A stretch of DNA of 28,826 nucleotides. It comes from Bacteroidota bacterium (GTDB lineage: Bacteria > Bacteroidota > Bacteroidia > Chitinophagales > Chitinophagaceae). Positions 3,409-25,404 of the stretch are shown here, one piece after another. Positions within the stretch are counted from its first letter, which is position 1; the number at the start of each line of letters is the position of its first letter. The stretch is taken from contig JAFDXS010000001.1 in NCBI GenBank assembly GCA_018267795.1, forward strand, positions 1 to 28,826, read 5' to 3'. Position numbers and translations under genes: made by a program. The notes beneath the pieces are model-generated. The model worked only from the letters and a program-made list of their open reading frames with translations, ran no database searches and was not told the origin of the DNA.

Positions 3409-4125
3409 TTATTTGTAGTACTCATACGTGTATAGCAGCAATTGCTTAGGCATGCCAGCTTTCTTATTATCTGTGAAAAGCACTTTGCTGCGGTTACCCT
3501 TTTTATCAGCTCCTAAAGGTTTAAATTCAAAGTGGTAGTTATTCTTCGACAATGAATCAGTAATTACTTCTTTATTTGCACGTCCATTTTTGTCGTAGCT
3601 GAAATTTGTTATAATGCACGCCATCAGTTGGCCATTACTATTATATTTTTTTGTGGTGGTTACCTTATTGCGCATGTCTTTATCCAGCACATGCACTATT
3701 TCATTTTTTGACTCCTTTTCGCTAAAGCTATCTATGTAAGTATTATTATTTACCCAGTTTACAGTAGAGGCACCTATTTCCCTACCATGGTCATCATATG
3801 TCTTTGAGCCTGCTATTTTATCATCTTTATAGCTGAATTTGGTAATTGTACTGGTAACGCCTTTTCTTCCTGCCACCTGGTAGTGCAGATGTTCTATAGC
3901 TGATAGCCTCCCGCTTTCATCAAAATTGTATTTTTCTACATTATAGAACACGGTATCTACCACTATCCAGTCACCATTTACCTGCCTCGTATACGGGAAC
4001 CGTGCTTCTTCCATCATTTTTACTTTGCCTTTCAGTCCATATCGTTTTACATCATTGTCCACATTTTGCGCATTGCACTGATAGGTTAATGCAATAAGAG
4101 AAAGAAGAAAAAAAGCTTTTTTCAT
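3409..4125 (-). CDS. Secreted hypothetical protein with YD/RHS-like beta-hairpin segments
   Basis: Start refined to MKKAFFLLSLIALTYQCNA-Q (signal peptide, then Gln); recurring YxFDxxG/YDxxG-like motifs (YNFDESGRL, TYDDHGRE, SYDKNGRA). Confidence 0.8.
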   Translation of the reverse strand: MKKAFFLLSLIALTYQCNAQNVDNDVKRYGLKGKVKMMEEARFPYTRQVNGDWIVVDTVFYNVEKYNFDESGRLSAIEHLHYQVAGRKGVTSTITKFSYKDDKIAGSKTYDDHGREIGASTVNWVNNNTYIDSFSEKESKNEIVHVLDKDMRNKVTTTKKYNSNGQLMACIITNFSYDKNGRANKEVITDSLSKNNYHFEFKPLGADKKGNRSKVLFTDNKKAGMPKQLLLYTYEYYK

Positions 4126-4327
4126 TTTGTATATATTTCTGAATAGTAGGGCTATAAAATTAATGCTTCTGCACAAAGTTTGTGAAAACTATAAAGATAA
4201 TCGTCCGGATATAACATTTATTAAATAATTGGTTGAATAAGGATTAAAATGCATCTTACAGGAAATGCAGGCTATACTTACCGACAAAACAATGTATTTC
4301 GCCGATTTGTATATGCACTTAAAAAAA

Positions 4328-5800: not shown

Positions 5801-6679
5801 TTGTCTGTAATCTCTTATTATATAGTATTGCCGTTTATCTATTTGTTATCGGCATTGCCATTTCGTGCATTATACATCCTGTCAAATGGTATGTATGTGT
5901 TTTTGTATCATATTACAGGCTACCGAAAAAAAGTTGTCATTACTAATTTAAAAAACTCTTTTCCTGAGAAGAATGAAGAAGAGATAAATACAATATGTAA
6001 ACAATATTATAGTTATCTCTGCGATCTTTTCCTGGAAACATTTAAAACGCTCACTATTAGCAAAAAAAGCATGCTCAAGCACTGCTACTTTCGTCCCGAA
6101 GCACAAAAGCTTTTTGATCGCCTTGCGGATGAAAATAAAAGTGTGATACTTGTCTTAGGTCATTTGGGCAATTGGGAGTGGGCTGGTAATACATTTAGCC
6201 TTTGTTGTCGGCACCAGTTATACGTTATATATCATCCTTTGCGCAATAAGCAGTTTGATGGGCTGATGTATAAAATGCGTTCGCATTTTGGCACTAAGCT
6301 TATTCCTATGAAAGACACCTTCCGCACTATGCTTGCTCAAAAAAATGAATTAAATGCTACTGCCTTTATTGCAGATCAGACACCCTTTCCTGATAATGCC
6401 TATTGGGTGAAGTTTCTTAACCAGGATACCCCGGTATTTAAGGGCACAGAAATTATTGCTAAAAAGATTAATTATCCCGTAGTCTATGTAAACGTGAGCC
6501 GCGTAAAACGAGGCTACTATGAAATGAATGCTGAAATGCTCTGCGAAAATCCCGCTGCAACCGCAGATGAGGAAATTACGCGGATGCATACCAGTCGCCT
6601 GGAGCAGGATATAATAGCTCGTCCTGAAACATGGCTATGGTCGCACAAGCGCTGGAAACACAAAAGAGTTACTAACTAA
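5801..6679 (+). CDS. Lipid A late acyltransferase family protein (LpxL/HtrB-like)
   Basis: N-terminal TM anchor; GHLGNWE catalytic motif; FIADQ motif; C-terminal PETWLWSHKRWK. Confidence 0.9.
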   Translation: MSVISYYIVLPFIYLLSALPFRALYILSNGMYVFLYHITGYRKKVVITNLKNSFPEKNEEEINTICKQYYSYLCDLFLETFKTLTISKKSMLKHCYFRPEAQKLFDRLADENKSVILVLGHLGNWEWAGNTFSLCCRHQLYVIYHPLRNKQFDGLMYKMRSHFGTKLIPMKDTFRTMLAQKNELNATAFIADQTPFPDNAYWVKFLNQDTPVFKGTEIIAKKINYPVVYVNVSRVKRGYYEMNAEMLCENPAATADEEITRMHTSRLEQDIIARPETWLWSHKRWKHKRVTN

Positions 6680-6701
6680 TATTAAAAAATAAGGAAATTG
6701 T

Positions 6702-7682
6702 ATGAAGACAGGTAAAGAGCTCATATTAGCTACTAAACCTTTCGCAAAGGAAATACGGAGTGAGAGTTGGAAACATACCATTGTGGCCTTCGTGCTTTTA
6801 TTATCTTTTTTGTTTGGTACTTTATTATTGCCTGGCTTTCTGCCTAAGCTTTTGTGCAGCATAGGTGCAGGCCTTATGGTGATACGTACGTTTATTATTT
6901 ACCACGATTATCTACATCATTCTATTCTCAATAAGTCACCGCTGGCACGTGTCATCTTTTCTATTTTTGGTGTATATACGCTGGCACCTGTGAGTATCTG
7001 GAAGCGATCTCACGACTATCATCATAAGCACAATTCCAAGCTGTTTAGCGCAAGCATAGGCTCCTACCCTATAGCTACTAAAAAGAAATTTTTGTCCATG
7101 ACAGCGCGCGAACGCCGTGCTTACCTTGCCACACGTCATCCCATTACTATGTTGTTTGGCTATATCACTATGTTCGTGATTGGTATGTGCCTTAATTCTT
7201 TTTTAAGTTCGCCACGCAAGCATTGGGACTCTTTGCTGGCTTTGTTATTGCACCTTACAGCATCCGTATTGCTTTTTTATTTTGGTGGTTGGCAGGCATG
7301 GTTTCTTACCGCTTTTCTTCCTTTCTTCCTTGCCTTTAGTGTGGGTGCATACTTGTTTTATGCGCAGCATAATTTTCCCGGTGTTACCTTTTCCTCCAAT
7401 ACAGAATGGACATACGAAAGTGCAGCGCTGGAATCTTCAAGCTTTATGGTTATGGGCCCGGTGCTCAACTGGATTACAGCAAATATTGGCTACCACCACA
7501 TACATCACATTAATGCCCGCATACCATTTTATCGCTTGCCTGAGGTAATGGCAGCGATACCTGAGCTCCAGCAAGCGAAAAGAACTTCGTTATCACCGCG
7601 CGATATGAAGAAGTGCATTAAGCTGAAAGTTTGGGATCCGGAAAGGAACCAGTTAATTCCGCTTACTTTGGTAAACCGGTAG
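6702..7682 (+). CDS. Membrane fatty-acid desaturase (Bacillus Des-like acyl-lipid desaturase)
   Basis: Three His boxes HDYLH, HDYHH, HHIHH (IGYHHIHHINARIPFYRL); TM segments; 22 bp after the acyltransferase. Confidence 0.92.
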   Translation: MKTGKELILATKPFAKEIRSESWKHTIVAFVLLLSFLFGTLLLPGFLPKLLCSIGAGLMVIRTFIIYHDYLHHSILNKSPLARVIFSIFGVYTLAPVSIWKRSHDYHHKHNSKLFSASIGSYPIATKKKFLSMTARERRAYLATRHPITMLFGYITMFVIGMCLNSFLSSPRKHWDSLLALLLHLTASVLLFYFGGWQAWFLTAFLPFFLAFSVGAYLFYAQHNFPGVTFSSNTEWTYESAALESSSFMVMGPVLNWITANIGYHHIHHINARIPFYRLPEVMAAIPELQQAKRTSLSPRDMKKCIKLKVWDPERNQLIPLTLVNR

Positions 7683-7795
7683 CGCTACCCTTTTAAAAAA
7701 ATCATGAAAGTATTTTCCTGATTTTCATTATTTTTTTGATTTATAAAATTTATAGTCATACCTTTAGGTTATTACATTTTTTTAATTTAAACACA

Positions 7796-7987
7796 ATGCA
7801 AGAAGGTACAGTAAAATTTTTCAATGAAACAAAAGGTTTTGGTTTCATTAAGCCGTCAAACGGTTCAGCAGACATTTTCGTTCACGTTTCTGGTCTTATA
7901 GATGAGATCCGCGAAAACGATGTTGTAACATTCGAAGTAGAAAACGGAAAAAAAGGCTTAAACGCCGTTAAGGTGAAAGTTAAATAA
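7796..7987 (+). CDS. Cold-shock domain protein (63 aa)
   Basis: Start refined to MQEGTVKFFN; RNP1 KGFGFI and RNP2 IFVH motifs. Confidence 0.95.
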   Translation: MQEGTVKFFNETKGFGFIKPSNGSADIFVHVSGLIDEIRENDVVTFEVENGKKGLNAVKVKVK

Positions 7988-8010
7988 TTTCATACATACG
8001 TTTTTTGTTC

Positions 8011-8038
8011 AAACACGCTCTTGTAGCGTGTTTTTTTT
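8011..8038 (+). terminator. Intrinsic terminator after the first csp
   Basis: AAACACGCT-CTTGT-AGCGTGTTT followed by a T-run. Confidence 0.8.
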
Positions 8039-8063
8039 GCACCTGACATGTCGTTCCAATTTT

Positions 8064-8095
8064 TTTGACAATGCCTGCATTCTTCAGTATCTTGC
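8064..8095 (+). promoter_or_regulatory. Promoter for DUF763 (TTTG/TTGACA ... TATCTTGC)
   Basis: TTGACA (8065-8070), a 17-nt spacer, TATCTT (8088-8093), then only 5 nt before the ATG. Confidence 0.55.
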
Positions 8096-8098
8096 AGT

Positions 8099-9310
8099 AT
8101 GTCTCGTTCCTACGCCGATATGCCCTTACACTATGGTCAGGTACCACCCTGGCTTTATCAGCGTATGAGCAAGCTGGGAGTTGCGATCATCGAGGCTATT
8201 GTCACAGAATATGGCAAAAGCGCTGTTTTAGCCCGTCTTAGCGATCCTTTTTGGTTTCAGGCGCTTGGTTGTGTATTAGGAATGGACTGGCATTCATCCG
8301 GTATCACTACATCTGTTATGGGCGCTTTAAAGCGTTCTGTAAATCCAAGGGCAAAAGAATTGGGGATTTATATCTGCGGCGGTAAAGGAAAGTATTCGAG
8401 AGAGACACCTGCGGAACTAATAAAGATAGCTGAAGAAACAGGGCTTGATGGCGATTTGCTGGTACGCAGCAGTAAGCTATCTGCCAAGGTAGATAATACT
8501 GCCATACAGGATGGCTACCAACTATATCTACACTCTTTTATTTTGAGCAATGAGGGTGAGTGGGCAGTTGTGCAGCAAGGCATGAATGATGCGAACGGTA
8601 TGGCAAGGCGTTATCATTGGCATTCCCCGTCCTTAAAGTCTTTTGTGGAAGAGCCACATACTTATATATATGGCCACAACCAAGGTTTGATATTAAATAT
8701 TACGGATAAGAAAGCAGATACTACGCGTTCCGGCATATTACAGCTCACACACGAAGAACCTGCGAGTCTGTTGCCGGAAATCAGAAAGCTGTTTATGCCC
8801 GTTCATCACGATGTAAAGGCAAAGGACGTTGACCTTAAAAGATTGGGTGCAATACTGGCTGTGGCTCATGAAAAAGAAGGTCTGGATATAGAGTCCTTGT
8901 TGCTCCTGGAAGGCTTGGGCCCACGCACTTTGCAGTCATTAACGCTCGTAAGCGAAGTAATACACGGCACACCTTCACGTTTCGAAGATCCTGCTCGTTT
9001 TTCTTTTGCCCATGGCGGTAAAGACGGCCATCCCTTCCCTGTTCCCACCAAAGTATATGATGAAACCATACATACTTTAGAGATTGCAGTGAACAGGTCT
9101 AAGCTTGGTCATACCGATAAAAGCGCAGCAATAAAAAATCTTTCGAAAGCGGCGCAGTTGCTAGAGAAGGATTTTCAACCCAATAATAATTTTGAGCAGC
9201 TCATAGAGCATGAACGAAATGAATCATGGAAGTATGGCGGTAGAACTGTGATGGGCAAGGCAGTACCGCCTAAACAAAAGCCAAAGGGCTTTCAACTAAG
9301 ACTATTTTAG
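8099..9310 (+). CDS. DUF763 (COG1415-like) protein
   Basis: Family motifs recognised from memory: DPFWFQALGCVLGMDWHSSGITT, GGKG, AKVDN, QQGMN, RRYHW, FSFAHGGKDGHPFPV; also an HhH-like LLLLEGLGPRT and C-terminal QLRLF. Confidence 0.88.
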   Translation: MSRSYADMPLHYGQVPPWLYQRMSKLGVAIIEAIVTEYGKSAVLARLSDPFWFQALGCVLGMDWHSSGITTSVMGALKRSVNPRAKELGIYICGGKGKYSRETPAELIKIAEETGLDGDLLVRSSKLSAKVDNTAIQDGYQLYLHSFILSNEGEWAVVQQGMNDANGMARRYHWHSPSLKSFVEEPHTYIYGHNQGLILNITDKKADTTRSGILQLTHEEPASLLPEIRKLFMPVHHDVKAKDVDLKRLGAILAVAHEKEGLDIESLLLLEGLGPRTLQSLTLVSEVIHGTPSRFEDPARFSFAHGGKDGHPFPVPTKVYDETIHTLEIAVNRSKLGHTDKSAAIKNLSKAAQLLEKDFQPNNNFEQLIEHERNESWKYGGRTVMGKAVPPKQKPKGFQLRLF

Positions 9311-9320
9311 GCTTGGCTAT

Positions 9321-9349
9321 AAAAGAAAAAGACCGGAATATCCGGTCTT
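9321..9349. terminator. Terminator between convergent DUF763 and the second csp
   Basis: AAGACCGGA-ATA-TCCGGTCTT; the U-tract is on the minus strand, so it is stronger for the csp. Confidence 0.75.
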
Positions 9350-9370
9350 AACTTAAGGTTTTTTCAATGA

Positions 9371-9577
9371 TTAACGTATAACTCGAACATTAACTGCGTT
9401 CATTCCTTTTCTACCTTGTTGCAATTCAAATTCAACACGGTCGTTTTCTTTCACCTGGTCTCTTAAACCGCTAACGTGAACGAATGTTTCCTGGTTTGAT
9501 TCGTCATGCTTAATGAAGCCAAAACCTTTGCCTTCATTGAAGAACTTTACAGTTCCGGTTAATTTTTGTGTTTGCAC
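9371..9577 (-). CDS. Cold-shock domain protein (68 aa)
   Basis: GTVKFFNEGKGFGFI and FVH RNP motifs; GTG start; TATCTTTG box at 9612-9619. Confidence 0.95.
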   Translation of the reverse strand: MQTQKLTGTVKFFNEGKGFGFIKHDESNQETFVHVSGLRDQVKENDRVEFELQQGRKGMNAVNVRVIR

Positions 9578-9658
9578 TGTAAAAAAATTTAAATAAATAA
9601 AAGAGTAATACCAAAGATAGCATTTAGTTTAAAAAAACAAACACTTCAGTATTATTTT

Positions 9659-10765
9659 TTAGTGCTTACCAAGCTTTCTTAACATTTTTGCATGTTGCCA
9701 AAGTGCATGCATAAACGTAGGCTCCACTTTATATGGCAGGCCATGTTCTTGTGCTGCAGATTTTACTATTACAGATAGCTCTCTGTAATGCACATGACAT
9801 ATATAGGGGAAGAGATGATGTTCTATTTGGTTATTTAATCCGCCAATGAACCATGAAAATATTCTGCTTTTTGGCGAGAAATTTATAGTGTTTAGCAACT
9901 GATGCACAGCCCAGTTATTTTCCATTTTCCTGTCTTCGTTTGGTGCAGGAAATTCAGCATCTTCCATCACATGGGCAAGCTGAAAAATACAGGAAAGCGC
10001 AAGGCCGGCAACAAAGTGCAGTATCAGGAAGCCTAATACAACGGCCTGCCATGACATACCAGAGAAAATAATAGGAAGTACAAGTATGTAACCGAAATAA
10101 ATTACTTTATAAATAGTAAGTTCAGTAAGTGCTTTACGCAGTGATATTTTTTCTTTGCGTAGCAATTCTTTTTTCTCGTAAGCGAATAGTAAACGGTAGT
10201 CTTTATAAGTTACCCATTGCAGTGTAAGCAGGCCATAAAGGAACCATGCATATATATGCTGAAAACGATGTAAAAAATAACGTTTGCTGTGTGGTGAAAA
10301 ACGAAGCAGCATACCTGCATCTATATCCTCATCCAGACCTTCAATATTTGTATAGGTATGGTGCAGGATGTTATGCTGTATTCTCCAGGTTACATCATAG
10401 CCGCCTACCAGGTTCACTATATCACCAATATATTTATTTACATTTTTGTTAGTAGAGTATGAACCGTGGTTGGAGTCGTGATGTACAGAGCAGCCTATAC
10501 CCACCATGCCAAGTCCCATCAGGAACCACAAAGAAAAAAACAGGAATGGACTTACAGCTGCAAGCCCTGATACTATGAAAGCATAAGGCCCGAAGAACAA
10601 AGCAATCATAGCAACGGTTTTCCATTTCATTGCTTTGTTACCGTAAGCTGTTAGATTATTCTCGCTGAAATATTTGTCGATATTTTTCTTTACTGTATCG
10701 TAAAAACCTTCACCGTTGCGTGGAGCAAATCGAACGATGTTTAACTTATTAACTGAAATTGACAA
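9659..10765 (-). CDS. Fatty-acid/acyl-CoA desaturase, front-end (delta-6-like) type without cytochrome b5 fusion
   Basis: His boxes HDSNH, HNILHH and QIEHH (the Gln-for-His third box is typical of front-end desaturases); TATCTTTG box at 10783-10790. Confidence 0.92.
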   Translation of the reverse strand: MSISVNKLNIVRFAPRNGEGFYDTVKKNIDKYFSENNLTAYGNKAMKWKTVAMIALFFGPYAFIVSGLAAVSPFLFFSLWFLMGLGMVGIGCSVHHDSNHGSYSTNKNVNKYIGDIVNLVGGYDVTWRIQHNILHHTYTNIEGLDEDIDAGMLLRFSPHSKRYFLHRFQHIYAWFLYGLLTLQWVTYKDYRLLFAYEKKELLRKEKISLRKALTELTIYKVIYFGYILVLPIIFSGMSWQAVVLGFLILHFVAGLALSCIFQLAHVMEDAEFPAPNEDRKMENNWAVHQLLNTINFSPKSRIFSWFIGGLNNQIEHHLFPYICHVHYRELSVIVKSAAQEHGLPYKVEPTFMHALWQHAKMLRKLGKH

Positions 10766-16936: not shown

Positions 16937-17028
16937 GCTGTAGAAGCTAGCTTGCAGTACAATAATATAAATATTTAGTTTTCAGATGCTTGTCTTTACT
17001 TTTGCATCCTGAAATCTCTATAGTTGTT

Positions 17029-17865
17029 ATGAATAAATGCCTGACCTTCTTACTGCTTGGTCTTTTACCTATAGCATCTCAAGCCCAATCAGCTAATACT
17101 GTGACTGCTACTCAACAGGAGCAGCCTCACTCAAAAAAGAAAGGTTCTTTTTACTTTTCCTGGGGCTACAATACTGAATGGTACACCCATAGCGATATAA
17201 AGGTGAAGCAATCAGCGCTTGGCAATGACTACACTATGGTCGATATGATAGGCCATGACCATAAAGGCTGGGATAATGGTATATTCAACAAGGCTATTAG
17301 CATTCCGCAGTATAACTATAGGTTGGGTTATTTCTTCAATGAAGAAAAAGGCTGGGCTATTGAGCTCAATTTCGATCATACTAAGTTTGTTGCACAAGAG
17401 CCGCAAAATGCGCATATAAAGGGTACTTTAGGCAACCGAAAAGTGGATACCACAGTCAATTTTCAGGAATCTAACGGCTTTTATTATTACCTGAACAATG
17501 GCGCCAACTTCTTTCTCATCAACCTTGTAAAGCGCCTGAATATTGTTCAGACTAAAGATGAAAAATTCAGGTTAGACTTTTTGGGTAAGGTAGGCGTAGG
17601 CCCGGTAGTACCGCACGTCGAAAACAGCTTTTTCGGTCATGCTAATGATCCTCACTTCCAGGTGGGCGGTTGGAATACAGGTGTAGAAGCTACTATCAAG
17701 GCTACTTTCTTTAAGATCGTGTACCTGGAGTATTGCAACAAGCTCGACTATGCACGCTATTCTAACCTTAAGATATACGAAGGCACTGCTAAGCAGGCAT
17801 TTGGTACTTACGAAATGATATTAAACCTTGGTGTTATGATTCCGCGCAATTTGTGGAGGAAATAG
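17029..17865 (+). CDS. Secreted, probable outer-membrane beta-barrel hypothetical protein
   Basis: Start refined to MNKCLTF (TACTTTTG box at about 16998); signal peptide ending SQA-Q; alternating aromatic/Gly beta-strand pattern. Confidence 0.75.
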   Translation: MNKCLTFLLLGLLPIASQAQSANTVTATQQEQPHSKKKGSFYFSWGYNTEWYTHSDIKVKQSALGNDYTMVDMIGHDHKGWDNGIFNKAISIPQYNYRLGYFFNEEKGWAIELNFDHTKFVAQEPQNAHIKGTLGNRKVDTTVNFQESNGFYYYLNNGANFFLINLVKRLNIVQTKDEKFRLDFLGKVGVGPVVPHVENSFFGHANDPHFQVGGWNTGVEATIKATFFKIVYLEYCNKLDYARYSNLKIYEGTAKQAFGTYEMILNLGVMIPRNLWRK

Positions 17866-20842: not shown

Positions 20843-22453
20843 TTACGGCCTATACACTATCTTCCTGCTTACTACTACACTACCCTGTGTCCGTATCTGC
20901 AGCACCAGCATGCCCGCGGCAGTACCTTGTGGTATGTATAATGTGCGTTCCTTTCCTGTTCCGCCTATACTGGTCGTTATTATCTTGCCATTAATGTCCG
21001 TCACCTTCATACTTACTTCGCTCATGCCATCCGGCAGGCGTACATTTACCACTCCATTAGTTATGGTTGGGTATACCACTATCTCATTACTGGTACTCAC
21101 GTTTATAATACCGGTTGTTGTATCTGTTTCTTTTAGCTGCACTACCCAGTAGTCATTAGGTCCATAGCAGCTGTCCATATCTCCGTCTTTTGAACAGCCA
21201 TTACCGGTTGTTACATATACACTGTCTGTTACCTGTAGTATTTCATATCCAGCTTCCTGACTGCTGCCACCCAGGCATTTTTGCCATAGTAGCTTGCCTT
21301 TTGCATCCGTACGCACTACCCATTCGTCACTGTACATAATGCTGCTTCTATGCAGCCCTGTTACATCGCCATCGTGAGAAGTTGTGAGGCCTGTCATTAT
21401 ATAACCGCCATCATAGGTTTGTATAATGTCAAATAGTTGTTCACCTCCACTACCGCCATATGTCTTTTGCCAGTTTAGAGTACCATCGGCATCCAGTTTC
21501 ACCACCCAATAGTCCTCCAATCCATGGTTATAGGTTACATCACCATCAGAAGAGCGTGTTGTTCCTCCTACTATATAACCACCATCACTTGTTTGTCGTA
21601 TGGAAAATGAGCCTTCCATTCTATTGCCACCCAGGCATTTTTGCCATTTCATACTACCGTGTACATCTAATTTCACTACCCATATGTCTGTGCTGTCATG
21701 ATAGCCGCTTACATCTCCGTCAGCAGATTGAGTACTCCCCACCATTATATATCCGCTGTCACTTGTTTGTTGTATATAGCTGCCGGCATCCTGATTGCTG
21801 CCCCCCAGGCTTTTTTGCCAGGCTATATTGCCGCTGGCATCTAGTTTTACTACCCATGCATCAACAGTTCGGGCGGCAGTATGTATGCCACTCAGGTCGC
21901 CATCGATAGAGCCGGTTTCACCACAAAAAATGTATCCGCCATCATTGGTAGGCCTTATGCATTGTATCAGATCAAAGTTACTGCCTCCATAATTTTTTTC
22001 CCAGATTATGCTGCCGGTGGAAGATAAGTGCACCACCCAACCGTCAGCGCTGCCGTTATTATGCGCTACATCTCCATCTGTACTTTGTGTGAAGCCGGCA
22101 GCTATATACCCGCTGCCTGCCTTAATAATACTTTGTATATCATCCGCATCGGTTCCACCCAGGCATTTTTGCCATTGCAGTTTTCCCGTGGCATCTATAC
22201 TTATGACCCAACCGTCAGCAGAACCATGATTGCCGGTTATCTCATCATTTGTTGATCCTGTAAAGCCGCATATAATATAGCCTCCATTTATTCCATTGCA
22301 TATGCCAAGTGAATTATCATTGCCGCTCCCACCATAGTTCTTTTGCCATTCAATCACAGCGCTCTTTTGCGCTAACACATCTATCGGTATGTTCAGTTGT
22401 AGAAAAAGAAAAGAAAATACCAGCAGAACGCTATGTACTTGGGTTTTTCTCAT
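20843..22453 (-). CDS. T9SS type-A sorting-domain protein with a 7-repeat beta-propeller
   Basis: Signal peptide ending VLA-Q; seven W(Q/E)Kx(Y/L)GG repeats; C-terminal IVVYPT...VTDINGK...RKIV CTD. Confidence 0.9.
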   Translation of the reverse strand: MRKTQVHSVLLVFSFLFLQLNIPIDVLAQKSAVIEWQKNYGGSGNDNSLGICNGINGGYIICGFTGSTNDEITGNHGSADGWVISIDATGKLQWQKCLGGTDADDIQSIIKAGSGYIAAGFTQSTDGDVAHNNGSADGWVVHLSSTGSIIWEKNYGGSNFDLIQCIRPTNDGGYIFCGETGSIDGDLSGIHTAARTVDAWVVKLDASGNIAWQKSLGGSNQDAGSYIQQTSDSGYIMVGSTQSADGDVSGYHDSTDIWVVKLDVHGSMKWQKCLGGNRMEGSFSIRQTSDGGYIVGGTTRSSDGDVTYNHGLEDYWVVKLDADGTLNWQKTYGGSGGEQLFDIIQTYDGGYIMTGLTTSHDGDVTGLHRSSIMYSDEWVVRTDAKGKLLWQKCLGGSSQEAGYEILQVTDSVYVTTGNGCSKDGDMDSCYGPNDYWVVQLKETDTTTGIINVSTSNEIVVYPTITNGVVNVRLPDGMSEVSMKVTDINGKIITTSIGGTGKERTLYIPQGTAAGMLVLQIRTQGSVVVSRKIVYRP

Positions 22454-24429: not shown

Positions 24430-24558
24430 ACTATGTAGATTTAGCTCAAAAATAAAAAAGCCCGCGCTTATTTACGAATTAGTTCAGGAAAAATGTTTTT
24501 CGGCAGATTTCCCGCTTGTCGGAAAGCCTTACATTCGCCCCCTGAAAAATTGTGTGTT

Positions 24559-24993
24559 ATGCCAGTTTCTATATTGAATCGTGTTAATGATTTTTTCGAG
24601 TCCTATGCCAAAGCTTATGAGCACTTCGATACCAAGCTCATGGCCTTTTTGCATAATATACCCTGCACCCTGCTCGATGATGAGTCCACAAGCATTTACC
24701 AGGAAGCCAGTAAACTGGAGGGCTTATTTAACCAAGGAATACACTTCTACAAGCAACACGGCATAGTACATGCCCGTGCAGAAGTCTGGAATATGCATGC
24801 CCTTACAGATAAAATAACCAAAGTAAAGGTGAACTGGAAGTACTACAATGCAGAAAAGCAACCCGTTTACAACTGTGACTACCACTATATACTAAAGCTG
24901 GACAAGCACGACCAGCCTAAAATAGTACTCTCAGTATCTGTAAACGAAAAGGAAAGAATGGAGGCCTGGCTGCAACAGCAAACGAATAAATAA
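24559..24993 (+). CDS. Hypothetical protein, probable NTF2/SnoaL-like fold
   Basis: Start refined to MPVSIL (TACATTCG just upstream); DFFESYAKAY N-terminal helix followed by beta strands (VKVNWKY...YHYIL...IVLSV). Confidence 0.7.
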   Translation: MPVSILNRVNDFFESYAKAYEHFDTKLMAFLHNIPCTLLDDESTSIYQEASKLEGLFNQGIHFYKQHGIVHARAEVWNMHALTDKITKVKVNWKYYNAEKQPVYNCDYHYILKLDKHDQPKIVLSVSVNEKERMEAWLQQQTNK

Positions 24994-25005
24994 TACCTTT
25001 ATTTC

Positions 25006-25404
25006 ATGAAGTTAATCAAAGCTTTTCAGCAAACTTTTGGCAAAATATATGGCGTTTTGGTCTTTGCTGCATTCCTCTATTTCATTGTGGTTGGTATATT
25101 CTGGTCTTATGAATCTTTTAAAGGAGGTCAGTTCAATATTGTAGCACTTATATTTACGCTGGTGTTCATTGCCCTTATGTATTTCAGGCATAGGTTGGCA
25201 ACCCTTATTGTTGGTATTATCGGGCTCTTCTTCTCTATTATCAGTTTCCTGGGCGTAATTGCCTCCTATAACAAATATAAAGCGACTATTGCCGCTGCAG
25301 ACCAGCATATAGGTATCATCATTACATTTTCTGTATTGAATCTTGTTATGTTCTTCCTACTCATATTCAGCTACCTGCGCGCATTCATCCAAAATCCAGA
25401 TTAA
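25006..25404 (+). CDS. Four-TM membrane hypothetical protein
   Basis: Four hydrophobic segments; 12 bp after the previous gene. Confidence 0.75.
   Translation: MKLIKAFQQTFGKIYGVLVFAAFLYFIVVGIFWSYESFKGGQFNIVALIFTLVFIALMYFRHRLATLIVGIIGLFFSIISFLGVIASYNKYKATIAAADQHIGIIITFSVLNLVMFFLLIFSYLRAFIQNPD

What the first reader, a model, noticed from the sequence alone, without database searches (positions are those of the whole stretch)
8099..9310. DUF763 protein with an HhH motif and a C-terminal beta-clamp-type motif (QLRLF): candidate uncharacterised DNA-repair or replisome-associated enzyme
Seen: LLLLEGLGPRTLQSL (about 8897-8943) fits the helix-hairpin-helix consensus (hxxhxGhGxxxA/L). The protein ends in a Lys/Pro-rich flexible tail KAVPPKQKPKGF-QLRLF-stop (9293-9310). 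It also has polar motif residues (DWHSSG, KVDN, QQG, RRYHW, HGGKDGHP) suggestive of an active site. Established: QL[S/D]LF-like pentapeptides, often at the extreme C-terminus, dock proteins on the DnaN clamp, and HhH binds DNA non-specifically as in glycosylases, ligases and nucleases. To my knowledge DUF763 has no assigned function. Inference: a clamp-recruited DNA-processing enzyme; this is the best candidate for new biology in the window.
Basis: partly seen in the sequence, partly recalled or inferred. Interest (0 to 1): 0.75.

Follow-up and report, generated by a model that had tools for sequence, protein, structure and literature searches.

The report
DUF763 protein with a sliding-clamp tail
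This gene encodes a protein of unknown function whose flexible tail ends in a strongly conserved motif of the kind that docks proteins on the bacterial DNA sliding clamp. That gives the first concrete, testable clue that this widespread protein family works on DNA.

Summary
ORF 8099-9310 (+) encodes a 403-aa DUF763 protein (Pfam E 2e-135) that ends in a Lys/Pro-rich linker plus QLRLF.

- **Tail motif.** It is not chance. Only 3 of 5258 ORFs in this genome end in QLxLF; the other two are DNA polymerase IV and a PA0069-family radical-SAM protein. 116 of 121 close homologs and 75 of 80 species-level orthologs (Bacteroidota, Acidobacteriota, Leptospirales) keep it, while the linker and position 3 vary.
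- **Clamp docking.** A controlled complex prediction places residues 396-403 in the canonical peptide pocket of this genome's DnaN. Score 0.64, best control 0.00. Solved clamp-peptide complexes exist, so this shows likeness, not binding.
- **HhH motif.** It is real: HHH hits in 22 of 84 family members, and hhalign 82% against the endonuclease III HhH.
- **Core.** Residues 1-200 have no confident structural relative and no literature, so the chemistry is unknown.
- **Limits.** The clamp motif is confined to one bacterial long-form clade. Proteobacterial homologs lack it, and 0 of 120 archaeal-type homologs have a terminal PIP box. Archaeal copies often follow CoA or NAD biosynthesis genes. Only two loci pair DUF763 with alkylation-repair genes.

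Verdict: a credible new clamp client with unproven activity.

The parts
8065..8093 (+). Promoter-like site (TTGACA, 17-nt spacer, TATCTT) just upstream of the ATG. With the terminator of the upstream csp gene at 8011-8033, it indicates a monocistronic gene.
   Evidence: Consensus scan, 10 of 12 matches; sequence read. This is a consensus match only and is not evidence of function.
8099..9310 (+). DUF763 gene, 403 aa plus stop.
   Evidence: ORF list and translation. PF05559 E 2.2e-135. It is the single copy in the genome.
8099..8704 (+). N-terminal conserved alpha/beta core, residues 1-202. It holds most invariant residues: D63-W-H-S-S-G68, G94-G-K-G97, D132, Q159-Q160-G161 and R170-R171-Y-H-W174. 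It is the presumed ligand-binding or catalytic pocket.
   Evidence: Conservation in 84- and 79-sequence alignments. The AlphaFold2 domain model has pLDDT 89.8. The best structural match is only Z 4.3 (rmsd 3.7, 85 residues aligned, RsbW) and Foldseek finds nothing at E<=0.001.
8708..8968 (+). Helical DNA-binding-type domain, residues 204-290. It ends in the helix-hairpin-helix (helices 264-268 and 275-289, hairpin G272/G274, nt 8888-8965).
   Evidence: AF2 secondary structure. VIA-align best match Z 5.0 (rmsd 3.3, 79 aligned) to the TEFM N-terminal HhH domain, plus other small HhH-like domains at Z 3-4. Pfam HHH hits in 22 of 84 members. hhalign 82% against the Nth HhH. Weak PDB profile hits to RuvA and EndoIII HhH, E about 0.6.
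8969..9046 (+). Conserved loop, residues 291-316, with invariant D297-P298 and G306-G-K-D-G310-x-P312.
   Evidence: Conservation. pLDDT falls below 50 at residues 303-308, which suggests a mobile glycine-rich loop.
9047..9256 (+). C-terminal helices (317-358, 365-379) and the long-form extension motif E372-R-x-x-S-W-K-Y-G-G-R-T-V-M-G386. This motif is shared by bacterial long forms and absent from archaeal-type short forms.
   Evidence: Its function is unknown.
9257..9292 (+). Lys/Pro-rich flexible linker, residues 387-398. Its length and sequence vary among orthologs.
   Evidence: Alignment A3. Linker length ranges from 9 to 21 residues. AF2 confidence is low.
9293..9307 (+). Clamp-binding-type motif QLRLF at the extreme C-terminus, residues 399-403.
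   Evidence: Q, L, L and F are invariant in 33 diverse orthologs. It is predicted to occupy the canonical DnaN pocket. It matches the consensus Q-phi-x-[L/M]-[F/L], with QLxLF the highest-affinity form (review PMC11139829).
9329..9349 (.). GC-rich hairpin between the DUF763 gene and the convergent csp gene. It is a likely shared terminator.
   Evidence: Terminator scan; sequence read.

Best explanation
The gene encodes a soluble, stand-alone DUF763 protein built from four parts:

1. A strongly conserved N-terminal alpha/beta core with no recognisable structural relative. It carries glycine-rich, Ser/Thr/Lys/Arg-rich loops typical of phosphate or nucleotide binding.
2. A helical domain that ends in a genuine helix-hairpin-helix. 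This should hold duplex DNA through backbone contacts.
3. A second invariant Gly-Gly-Lys-Asp-Gly loop.
4. In this bacterial clade only, a disordered Lys/Pro-rich linker that ends in QLRLF.

The most likely mode of action is as follows. The terminal pentapeptide plugs into the hydrophobic pocket between domains II and III of the DnaN sliding clamp. This concentrates the protein on clamp-loaded DNA, that is primer termini, nicks and newly replicated or repaired duplex. The HhH domain then positions the DNA, and the conserved pocket carries out a phosphate-directed reaction on a DNA end or lesion.

How firm each step is:
- Shown here: the motif, its selection and the HhH.
- Predicted: docking to DnaN.
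- Inferred: that DNA is the substrate.
- Not known: the chemistry. My best guess is a nucleotide- or cofactor-assisted end- or lesion-processing activity rather than a polymerase.
For: **Motif selection.**
- 116 of 121 close homologs end exactly in QLxLF. 75 of 80 orthologs from different species in three phyla keep the motif, while the linker and position 3 drift.
- All 17 hits in a 301-genome Bacteroidota sample keep a QLxL[F/W] motif at or within two residues of the end; one of them has Trp for the last Phe.

**Specificity within the genome.** Only three ORFs end in QLxLF. One is DNA polymerase IV, a textbook clamp client (NF002677).

**Complex prediction** with own-genome DnaN and a tail alignment.
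- Score 0.64 (runs 0.64, 0.61, 0.67); best of 3 controls 0.00.
- The mark was reached by 58 of 80 solved complexes and 2 of 110 mismatched pairs. These counts hold only roughly here, because my own alignments were used.
- The runs agree in at least 71% of contacts. Partner pLDDT is at least 48.
- The interface is tail residues 396-403. The DnaN residues involved map onto 10 of 12 subsite I and 7 of 8 subsite II positions of the E. coli clamp (residue list from PMC11139829).

**HhH.**

**Single-gene unit.** It has its own promoter-like site and terminators.

**Weak links to DNA lesion repair in other clades.** AlkB overlaps the DUF763 start on a Rhodopseudomonas plasmid. A 3-methyladenine glycosylase overlaps the start in one archaeal contig, preceded by a macro-domain gene.
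Against: - No binding or activity has been measured. Clamp-peptide complexes are solved, so the complex score may reflect memory of the motif rather than this protein.
- The clamp motif is absent from the proteobacterial long-form subclade and from every short or archaeal form examined, and no PIP box replaces it. The core activity therefore does not need a clamp.
- There is no conserved repair-gene neighbourhood in 97 Bacteroidota and Acidobacteriota loci.
- In archaeal-type loci the recurrent same-strand upstream neighbours are CoA and NAD biosynthesis genes: PPAT in 11 loci (10 within 70 bp), CoaBC in 3, a pantoate-kinase-like gene in 4 and NadA in 4. This hints at cofactor metabolism rather than DNA repair.
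- The two alkylation-repair adjacencies are single cases. A few such cases are expected by chance among about 200 loci.
- The gene is patchy, present in 18 of 301 Bacteroidota genomes. It is therefore not a core replisome part.
Confidence: 0.5

Rival explanations
1. The DUF763 core is primarily a cofactor-related protein. It would be an enzyme or sensor that binds an ADP-containing molecule such as CoA, dephospho-CoA or NAD. The HhH and clamp tail of this bacterial clade would then be a secondary adaptation. One possibility is a cofactor-using DNA modification or a clamp-linked regulatory role, rather than classical repair.
For: - Among 76 archaeal-type loci with upstream sequence, pantetheine-phosphate adenylyltransferase (NF001985, 171-189 bits against a cut-off of 104) lies upstream on the same strand in 11 loci, and within 10-70 bp in 10 of them.
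- CoaBC lies upstream in 3 loci, a pantoate-kinase-like GHMP gene in 4 and NadA in 4.
- The linked loci are not one clade. The tree needs at least 5 changes, and their DUF763 identities range from 55 to 98%.
- The invariant residues are glycine-rich loops at helix N-termini plus Ser/Thr, Lys, Arg-Arg and aromatics, with few acidic residues. This pattern fits phosphate or nucleotide binding. That reading is my inference.
- A macro (ADP-ribose-binding) gene lies in the same gene string in one locus.
Against: - Archaeal operons often mix unrelated housekeeping genes. Only about one fifth of loci show the link.
- To my knowledge the CoA and NAD pathways of archaea have no missing step that needs a 350-aa HhH protein.
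- The family-wide HhH and the selected clamp motif are hard to explain for a purely metabolic enzyme.
- No cofactor-gene linkage is seen in the bacterial long-form loci.
Confidence: 0.2
2. The protein binds the clamp but is not an enzyme. It would be a clamp-associated adaptor or regulator, comparable in logic to Hda, YabA or CrfC, that occupies or marks clamps on DNA.
For: A conserved clamp motif with predicted docking. No catalytic family membership can be shown.
Against: About 45 positions are >=90% conserved across bacteria and archaea. They include polar and glycine clusters in loops. This is typical of an active site and unusual for an adaptor. Most family members also lack any clamp motif.
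Confidence: 0.1
3. The terminal QLxLF is not a clamp ligand in vivo. It would bind another partner or fold back on the protein. In that case DUF763 acts on RNA or another substrate, unrelated to replication.
For: Binding is only predicted. HhH motifs can also contact RNA or proteins. One archaeal locus lies among tRNA-modification and translation genes.
Against: - The motif is at the extreme C-terminus after a variable disordered linker.
- It matches the highest-affinity consensus.
- In the same genome it shares that position with Pol IV.
- It docks onto the canonical pocket residues with zero-score controls.
Confidence: 0.1
4. It is a divergent HhH-GPD DNA glycosylase or AP lyase. The HhH would be followed about 23 residues later by an invariant Asp (D297), with a conserved Lys (K308) as nucleophile.
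For: - hhalign aligns the HhH with that of endonuclease III (82%).
- A PDB profile search gives a weak EndoIII hit spanning profile positions 199-292 (E 0.65).
- The spacing between the end of the HhH helix and D297 resembles the HhH-GPD signature (read from the sequence; the comparison with Nth, MutY and OGG1 is from memory).
- AAG and AlkB neighbours occur in two loci.
Against: - The hhalign match covers only 34 columns and stops before the Asp.
- PF00730 does not appear for this protein, nor among the 25 families shown for the 84 members scanned at E<=5.
- The AF2 model shows an alpha/beta N-domain and no helix after D297. That differs from the all-alpha two-domain HhH-GPD fold.
- Structure searches did not return glycosylases, although that result is inconclusive.
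Confidence: 0.1

Closest known systems
DNA polymerase IV (DinB) and other clients with a C-terminal clamp-binding motif (Pol II, the Pol III alpha C-terminus)
   Same: A disordered C-terminal tail ends in a Q-L-x-L-F-type pentapeptide. It is predicted to sit in subsites I and II of DnaN. The Pol IV of this same genome ends in QLKLF (PMC11139829).
   Different: The body of the protein is unrelated. It has no polymerase or any other known catalytic domain. Binding is not measured.
Archaeal XPF/Hef-type nucleases (catalytic domain, then an (HhH)2 domain, then a C-terminal PCNA-binding motif)
   Same: The same architectural logic applies: catalytic module, HhH DNA-binding module, then a terminal sliding-clamp peptide. 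This comparison comes from my general knowledge and was not tested here.
   Different: There is no sequence or detectable fold similarity of the core to ERCC4 nucleases (inconclusive). The clamp here is bacterial beta, not PCNA. Archaeal DUF763 proteins themselves lack a terminal PIP box.
Endonuclease III / HhH-GPD superfamily and RuvA domain II
   Same: They share the helix-hairpin-helix motif (hhalign 82% over 34 columns; weak PDB profile hits).
   Different: Only the motif is shared. There is no PF00730 match, the predicted fold around it differs, and the second helix carries a 3-residue insertion.
NAD+-dependent DNA ligase LigA
   Same: It is an HhH-containing protein that works on clamp-loaded DNA and is listed as a beta-clamp partner (PMC11139829). 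It uses an ADP-containing cofactor, which echoes the NAD and CoA gene context of archaeal DUF763.
   Different: There is no nucleotidyltransferase, OB or BRCT domain. The GGKDG loop is not the KxDG ligase motif. This is an analogy only.

Membership tests
DUF763 (Pfam PF05559) | Match to the family HMM above the gathering score | tested here: met
   451.4 bits against a cut-off of 35.5, E 2.2e-135, covering profile positions 2-319 of 319.
Beta-clamp clients with a canonical clamp-binding motif | Motif Q-phi-x-[L/M]-[F/L], optimally QLxLF | tested here: met
   QLRLF at residues 399-403. The consensus is from PMC11139829.
Beta-clamp clients with a canonical clamp-binding motif | Motif lies in a disordered or terminal segment and is conserved among orthologs while its flanks vary | tested here: met
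   It is at the extreme C-terminus, where the AF2 pLDDT block means are 52-67. Q, L, L and F are invariant in alignment A3 with a variable linker. 75 of 80 species-level orthologs keep it. This holds only within the long-form clade.
Beta-clamp clients with a canonical clamp-binding motif | Motif binds the hydrophobic pocket between DnaN domains II and III | tested here: inconclusive
   This is a prediction only. Score 0.64 against a best control of 0.00; the mark was reached by 58 of 80 solved complexes and 2 of 110 mismatched pairs. The runs share at least 71% of contacts and partner pLDDT is at least 48. Contacts cover 10 of 12 subsite I and 7 of 8 subsite II residues. Similar complexes are solved, so the pass shows likeness. 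Physical binding cannot be tested with these tools.
Beta-clamp clients with a canonical clamp-binding motif | Function depends on the motif | not testable with these tools
   This needs tail-deletion genetics or biochemistry.
HhH-GPD DNA glycosylase superfamily (PF00730) | Helix-hairpin-helix motif | tested here: met
   hhalign 82% against the Nth HhH. HHH hits in 22 of 84 members.
HhH-GPD DNA glycosylase superfamily (PF00730) | Whole-domain sequence match, including the Gly/Pro-rich loop and the catalytic Asp | tested here: not met
   There is no PF00730 hit for this protein at E<=5, and it is not among the 25 families shown for the 84 members. The hhalign alignment ends at residue 293, before D297.
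HhH-GPD DNA glycosylase superfamily (PF00730) | Two-domain all-alpha fold | tested here: inconclusive
   The AF2 model has an alpha/beta N-domain. Structure searches listed no glycosylase, but a missing match does not exclude a relationship.
PCNA-binding (PIP-box) proteins, for archaeal DUF763 homologs | Qxx[LIMV]xx[FYW][FYW]-type motif at a terminus | tested here: not met
   0 of 120 archaeal-type proteins carry it in the last 20 residues; the named ones are Altiarchaeota, Bathyarchaeia, Thermoplasmatota and methanogens. 0 of 72 short-form representatives carry it at either end, apart from one hit on the conserved N-terminal motif of a clamp-motif-bearing row that my filter mislabelled as short. 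Only canonical motifs were sought.

The most novel reading that the evidence does not exclude
DUF763 is a previously unrecognised enzyme fold that uses an ADP-containing cofactor (NAD-, CoA- or ATP-derived) to process a DNA lesion or DNA end. In Bacteroidota and Acidobacteriota it is delivered to its substrate by the beta sliding clamp. That would define a new class of clamp-dependent DNA-repair or DNA-modification enzyme, with relatives across archaea and bacteria.
Probability: 0.12. Interest if true: 0.85.

Novelty: new member of a known kind. Interest (0 to 1): 0.6.

Why it matters
- **Size of the family.** DUF763 is large and old. The search found 3237 clusters at 50% identity with E<=0.001. 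It spans many archaeal phyla and several bacterial phyla, yet has no function, no solved structure and essentially no literature.
- **The clue.** A selected clamp-binding tail in one clade says the protein meets DNA at the replisome or at repair patches. This turns an anonymous family into one with cheap, decisive experiments: peptide-clamp binding, tail deletion, DNA binding and cofactor screens.
- **Wider value if confirmed.** It would add a structurally novel client to the beta-clamp interaction network. That network is of interest both for the coordination of replication and repair and as an antibacterial target.
- **The method.** The same logic, a genome-wide census of terminal QLxLF motifs, also flagged the PA0069 radical-SAM family. 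The approach may therefore find further clients.

Tried and rejected
**Annotation and literature**
- NCBIfam, PADLOC and PHROGs gave nothing useful.
- The PDB sequence search gave only chance hits, an SH2 domain at E 0.57.
- Literature searches for DUF763, PF05559, COG1415, IPR008482, XCC1094 and XAC1190 found only a 2005 domain census.

**Structure comparisons**
- Foldseek against the PDB and BFVD found nothing at E<=0.001, for both the full-length and the N-domain models.
- VIA-align wide gave a best Z of 5.0 for the full model and 4.3 for the N-domain. Both lie within the stated noise range, so I treat the GHKL-like RsbW, ThermoDBP and aminotransferase N-domain rows as uninformative.
- The ESM Atlas gave no usable hit once DUF763 clusters were excluded.

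**Gene context**
- Bacteroidota and Acidobacteriota loci show no conserved neighbour beyond within-genus synteny.
- The two cold-shock genes that flank the gene here are not conserved neighbours. I dropped a cold-specific role as unsupported.
- tblastn on plasmids found 230 records, mostly rhizobial chromids, with no informative common neighbour. No phage carries the gene.
- AlkB adjacency was found in only one locus when I searched every locus then held, plus the own genome.

**Other checks**
- Domain fusions: four singleton long proteins (metallo-beta-lactamase, CysRS, RecJ-type DHH, and one with an unannotated extension). They look like merged gene calls and were not used as evidence.
- Walker A, ligase KxDG and PD-(D/E)xK readings of the conserved loops were considered by eye. 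I rejected them because spacing or topology does not fit.
- Horizontal-transfer signal: GC is 45% in the gene against roughly 33-45% across the window, which is not distinctive.
Full report
**What is there.**
- The window carries an ATG-initiated ORF at 8099-9310 on the + strand, 403 codons long.
- It has a promoter-like site at 8065-8093. The terminator of the upstream cold-shock gene lies at 8011-8033. A GC-rich hairpin at 9329-9349 is shared with the convergent downstream cold-shock gene. It is therefore a single-gene unit.
- Pfam places it in DUF763 (PF05559, E 2.2e-135, residues 5-315). NCBIfam, PADLOC and PHROGs add nothing. It is the only copy in a 3.3-Mb draft genome that is 90% complete.
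- The closest named homologs come from Flavipsychrobacter and other Chitinophagaceae.
- The rest of the window is ordinary chromosome: gyrA, smpB, accD, pyrB, a sigma-70 gene, transporters.

**The observation.**
LLLLEGLGPRTLQSL is residues 267-281 (nt 8897-8941). The protein ends ...GKAVPPKQKPKGF-QLRLF (QLRLF = nt 9293-9307).

**Is the tail motif more than chance?**
- In the whole genome only three of 5258 ORFs of at least 100 codons end in QLxLF. They are this gene, DNA polymerase IV (a known clamp client; NF002677) and a PA0069-family radical-SAM protein.
- 116 of 121 proteins at >=79% identity end exactly in QLxLF.
- All 17 other DUF763 genes in a 301-genome Bacteroidota sample carry a QLxL[F/W] motif at or within two residues of the end; one has Trp for the last Phe.
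- 75 of 80 orthologs from different species (Bacteroidota, Terriglobia, one Leptospirales MAG) have Q[LMIV]x[LM][FWL] in the last ten residues.
- Position 3 is free (S, K, Q, R, N, E, T). The preceding linker varies from 9 to 21 residues and in sequence. Bacteroidales use QLxLW.
- This is the signature of a selected short linear motif. It matches the published consensus, with QLxLF the highest-affinity form (PMC11139829).

**Does it fit the clamp?**
- I took DnaN from the same genome, aligned it with 29 Bacteroidia orthologs, and aligned residues 340-403 with 32 orthologous tails.
- The controlled complex prediction supports binding. The score is 0.64 (three runs: 0.64, 0.61, 0.67) and the best of three controls is 0.00. 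The mark was reached by 58 of 80 solved complexes and 2 of 110 mismatched pairs. Those counts hold only roughly, because my own alignments were used. The runs share at least 71% of contacts and the partner's pLDDT is at least 48.
- The confident interface is tail residues 396-403. After alignment to E. coli DnaN, the clamp residues touched include 10 of the 12 subsite I residues and 7 of the 8 subsite II residues listed in the review.
- Many clamp-peptide complexes are solved. This result therefore shows that the tail looks like a clamp ligand to the model, not that it binds.

**The HhH.**
- This protein alone does not reach any Pfam HhH model. However, 22 of 84 family members hit PF00633 (best E 1.1e-4) and 9 hit HHH_5.
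- A family profile gives weak PDB hits only to RuvA and endonuclease III, both on their HhH (E about 0.6).
- The AlphaFold2 model (mean pLDDT 83.8) has helices 264-268 and 275-289 around G272/G274. The best structural matches of residues 204-292 are small HhH-type domains, although at Z values (5.0 and below) that are not significant on their own.
- The match to endonuclease III stops before the invariant D297 and no PF00730 hit exists. I therefore do not file the protein in the HhH-GPD superfamily.

**The core.**
- Residues 1-202 fold confidently (pLDDT 89.8) into helices packed on a five-stranded sheet.
- Foldseek finds nothing at E<=0.001. Exhaustive alignment against 48,161 PDB representatives gives a best Z of 4.3, within the tool's stated background.
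- The invariant residues form glycine-rich loops at helix N-termini (DWHSSGxTT; GGKG), an Arg-Arg-Tyr-His-Trp strand, a Gln-Gln-Gly strand end and a second GGKDG loop. I read this pattern, by inference only, as a phosphate- or nucleotide-binding pocket.
- The library holds no paper on the family's function.

**How far does the clamp link extend?**
- A tree of 106 family members (quick IQ-TREE) has a long-form clade with SH-aLRT 99. Its members share a C-terminal extension (ERxxSxxYGGRTVxG) and it contains every clamp-motif sequence.
- Inside that clade a proteobacterial subclade (support 100) has the extension but no motif.
- The remaining 66 short forms have neither. One haloarchaeal plasmid copy is among them.
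- A profile search with short forms returned 120 proteins. All the named ones are archaeal, and none has a canonical PIP box or clamp motif in its last 20 residues.
- The clamp tether is therefore a clade-specific addition to an older protein. The gene itself is patchy, present in 18 of 301 Bacteroidota genomes.

**Context.**
- In 97 Bacteroidota and Acidobacteriota loci no neighbour is conserved beyond genus-level synteny. The two cold-shock genes and two desaturases around the gene here are local features.
- No phage carries the gene. About 230 plasmids or chromids do, mostly rhizobial.
- Two loci pair it tightly with alkylation-repair genes. AlkB overlaps its start on a Rhodopseudomonas plasmid. 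A 3-methyladenine glycosylase overlaps its start in an archaeal contig, preceded by macro and PIN genes. These are single cases.
- A more frequent signal appeared in the archaeal-type loci from metagenomes (80 from the scan plus a few fetched earlier; 76 with upstream sequence). Pantetheine-phosphate adenylyltransferase lies upstream on the same strand in 11 loci, within 10-70 bp in 10 of them. CoaBC, a pantoate-kinase-like gene or NadA lies upstream in others.
- The linked loci are spread over several branches.
- This does not fit a simple repair story. It is the main reason I keep a cofactor-related reading as the first rival.

**Verdict.**
The protein is a credible, apparently unreported beta-clamp client with a real HhH. 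That it is a DNA-repair enzyme, or what it catalyses, is not shown.
- I rate it as a new member of a known kind (clamp-tethered DNA-binding proteins), with a core that may prove to be a new enzyme fold.

Noticed in passing
own genome contig C577:3054-4124 (loci L192, L279); orthologs L280-L303: A PA0069-family radical-SAM protein (NF033668, 481.6 bits) ends in QLPLF. 18 of 24 Bacteroidota orthologs keep a Q[LMIV]x[LM][FWL] motif in their last 12 residues. It is a second candidate sliding-clamp client of unknown function.
   Followed up: partly
metagenome loci L200, L201, L203, L208, L209, L215, L219, L221, L224, L233, L254 (and L222, L196, L204, L238, L247): Archaeal-type DUF763 genes sit directly downstream of CoA biosynthesis genes (pantoate-kinase-like, CoaBC, PPAT). 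In other lineages they sit downstream of NadA. The linkage recurs on several branches. Its meaning is unexplained.
   Followed up: partly
L198:3203-6146 (archaeal metagenome contig) and L123:6372-8242 (Rhodopseudomonas plasmid pBAL398.3): In the archaeal contig, a same-strand gene string of macro domain, unknown gene, PIN and 3-methyladenine DNA glycosylase runs into DUF763 with overlapping ends. On the plasmid, AlkB overlaps the DUF763 start. That AlkB ORF begins with ...DQLALF..., a clamp-motif-like pentapeptide at its N-terminus.
   Followed up: partly
window 5801-10765: The DUF763 gene is flanked by two paralogous cold-shock genes (7796-7987 +, 9371-9577 -). Outside those lie two fatty-acid desaturases (6702-7682 +, 9659-10765 -) and an LpxL-like lipid A acyltransferase (5801-6679 +). 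This looks like a cold or membrane-fluidity gene cluster. The cold-shock genes are not conserved next to DUF763 elsewhere, but a same-family genome keeps the acyltransferase and desaturase.
   Followed up: partly
window 20843-22453 (-), 24493-25404 (+), 3409-4176 (-), 16990-17865 (+): Several sizeable ORFs have no Pfam family or only a sub-threshold hit. One is a 536-aa ORF with a weak PqqD-like stretch.
   Followed up: no
loci L052, L053, L060, L069, L072, L074, L101: Bacteroidales and Rikenellaceae-type DUF763 orthologs end in QLxLW, often followed by D or E, instead of QLxLF. The beta-clamp review reports that Trp at the last motif position weakened binding in the Pol III alpha internal motif. 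This lineage-specific variant may therefore reflect a co-adapted clamp pocket.
   Followed up: no
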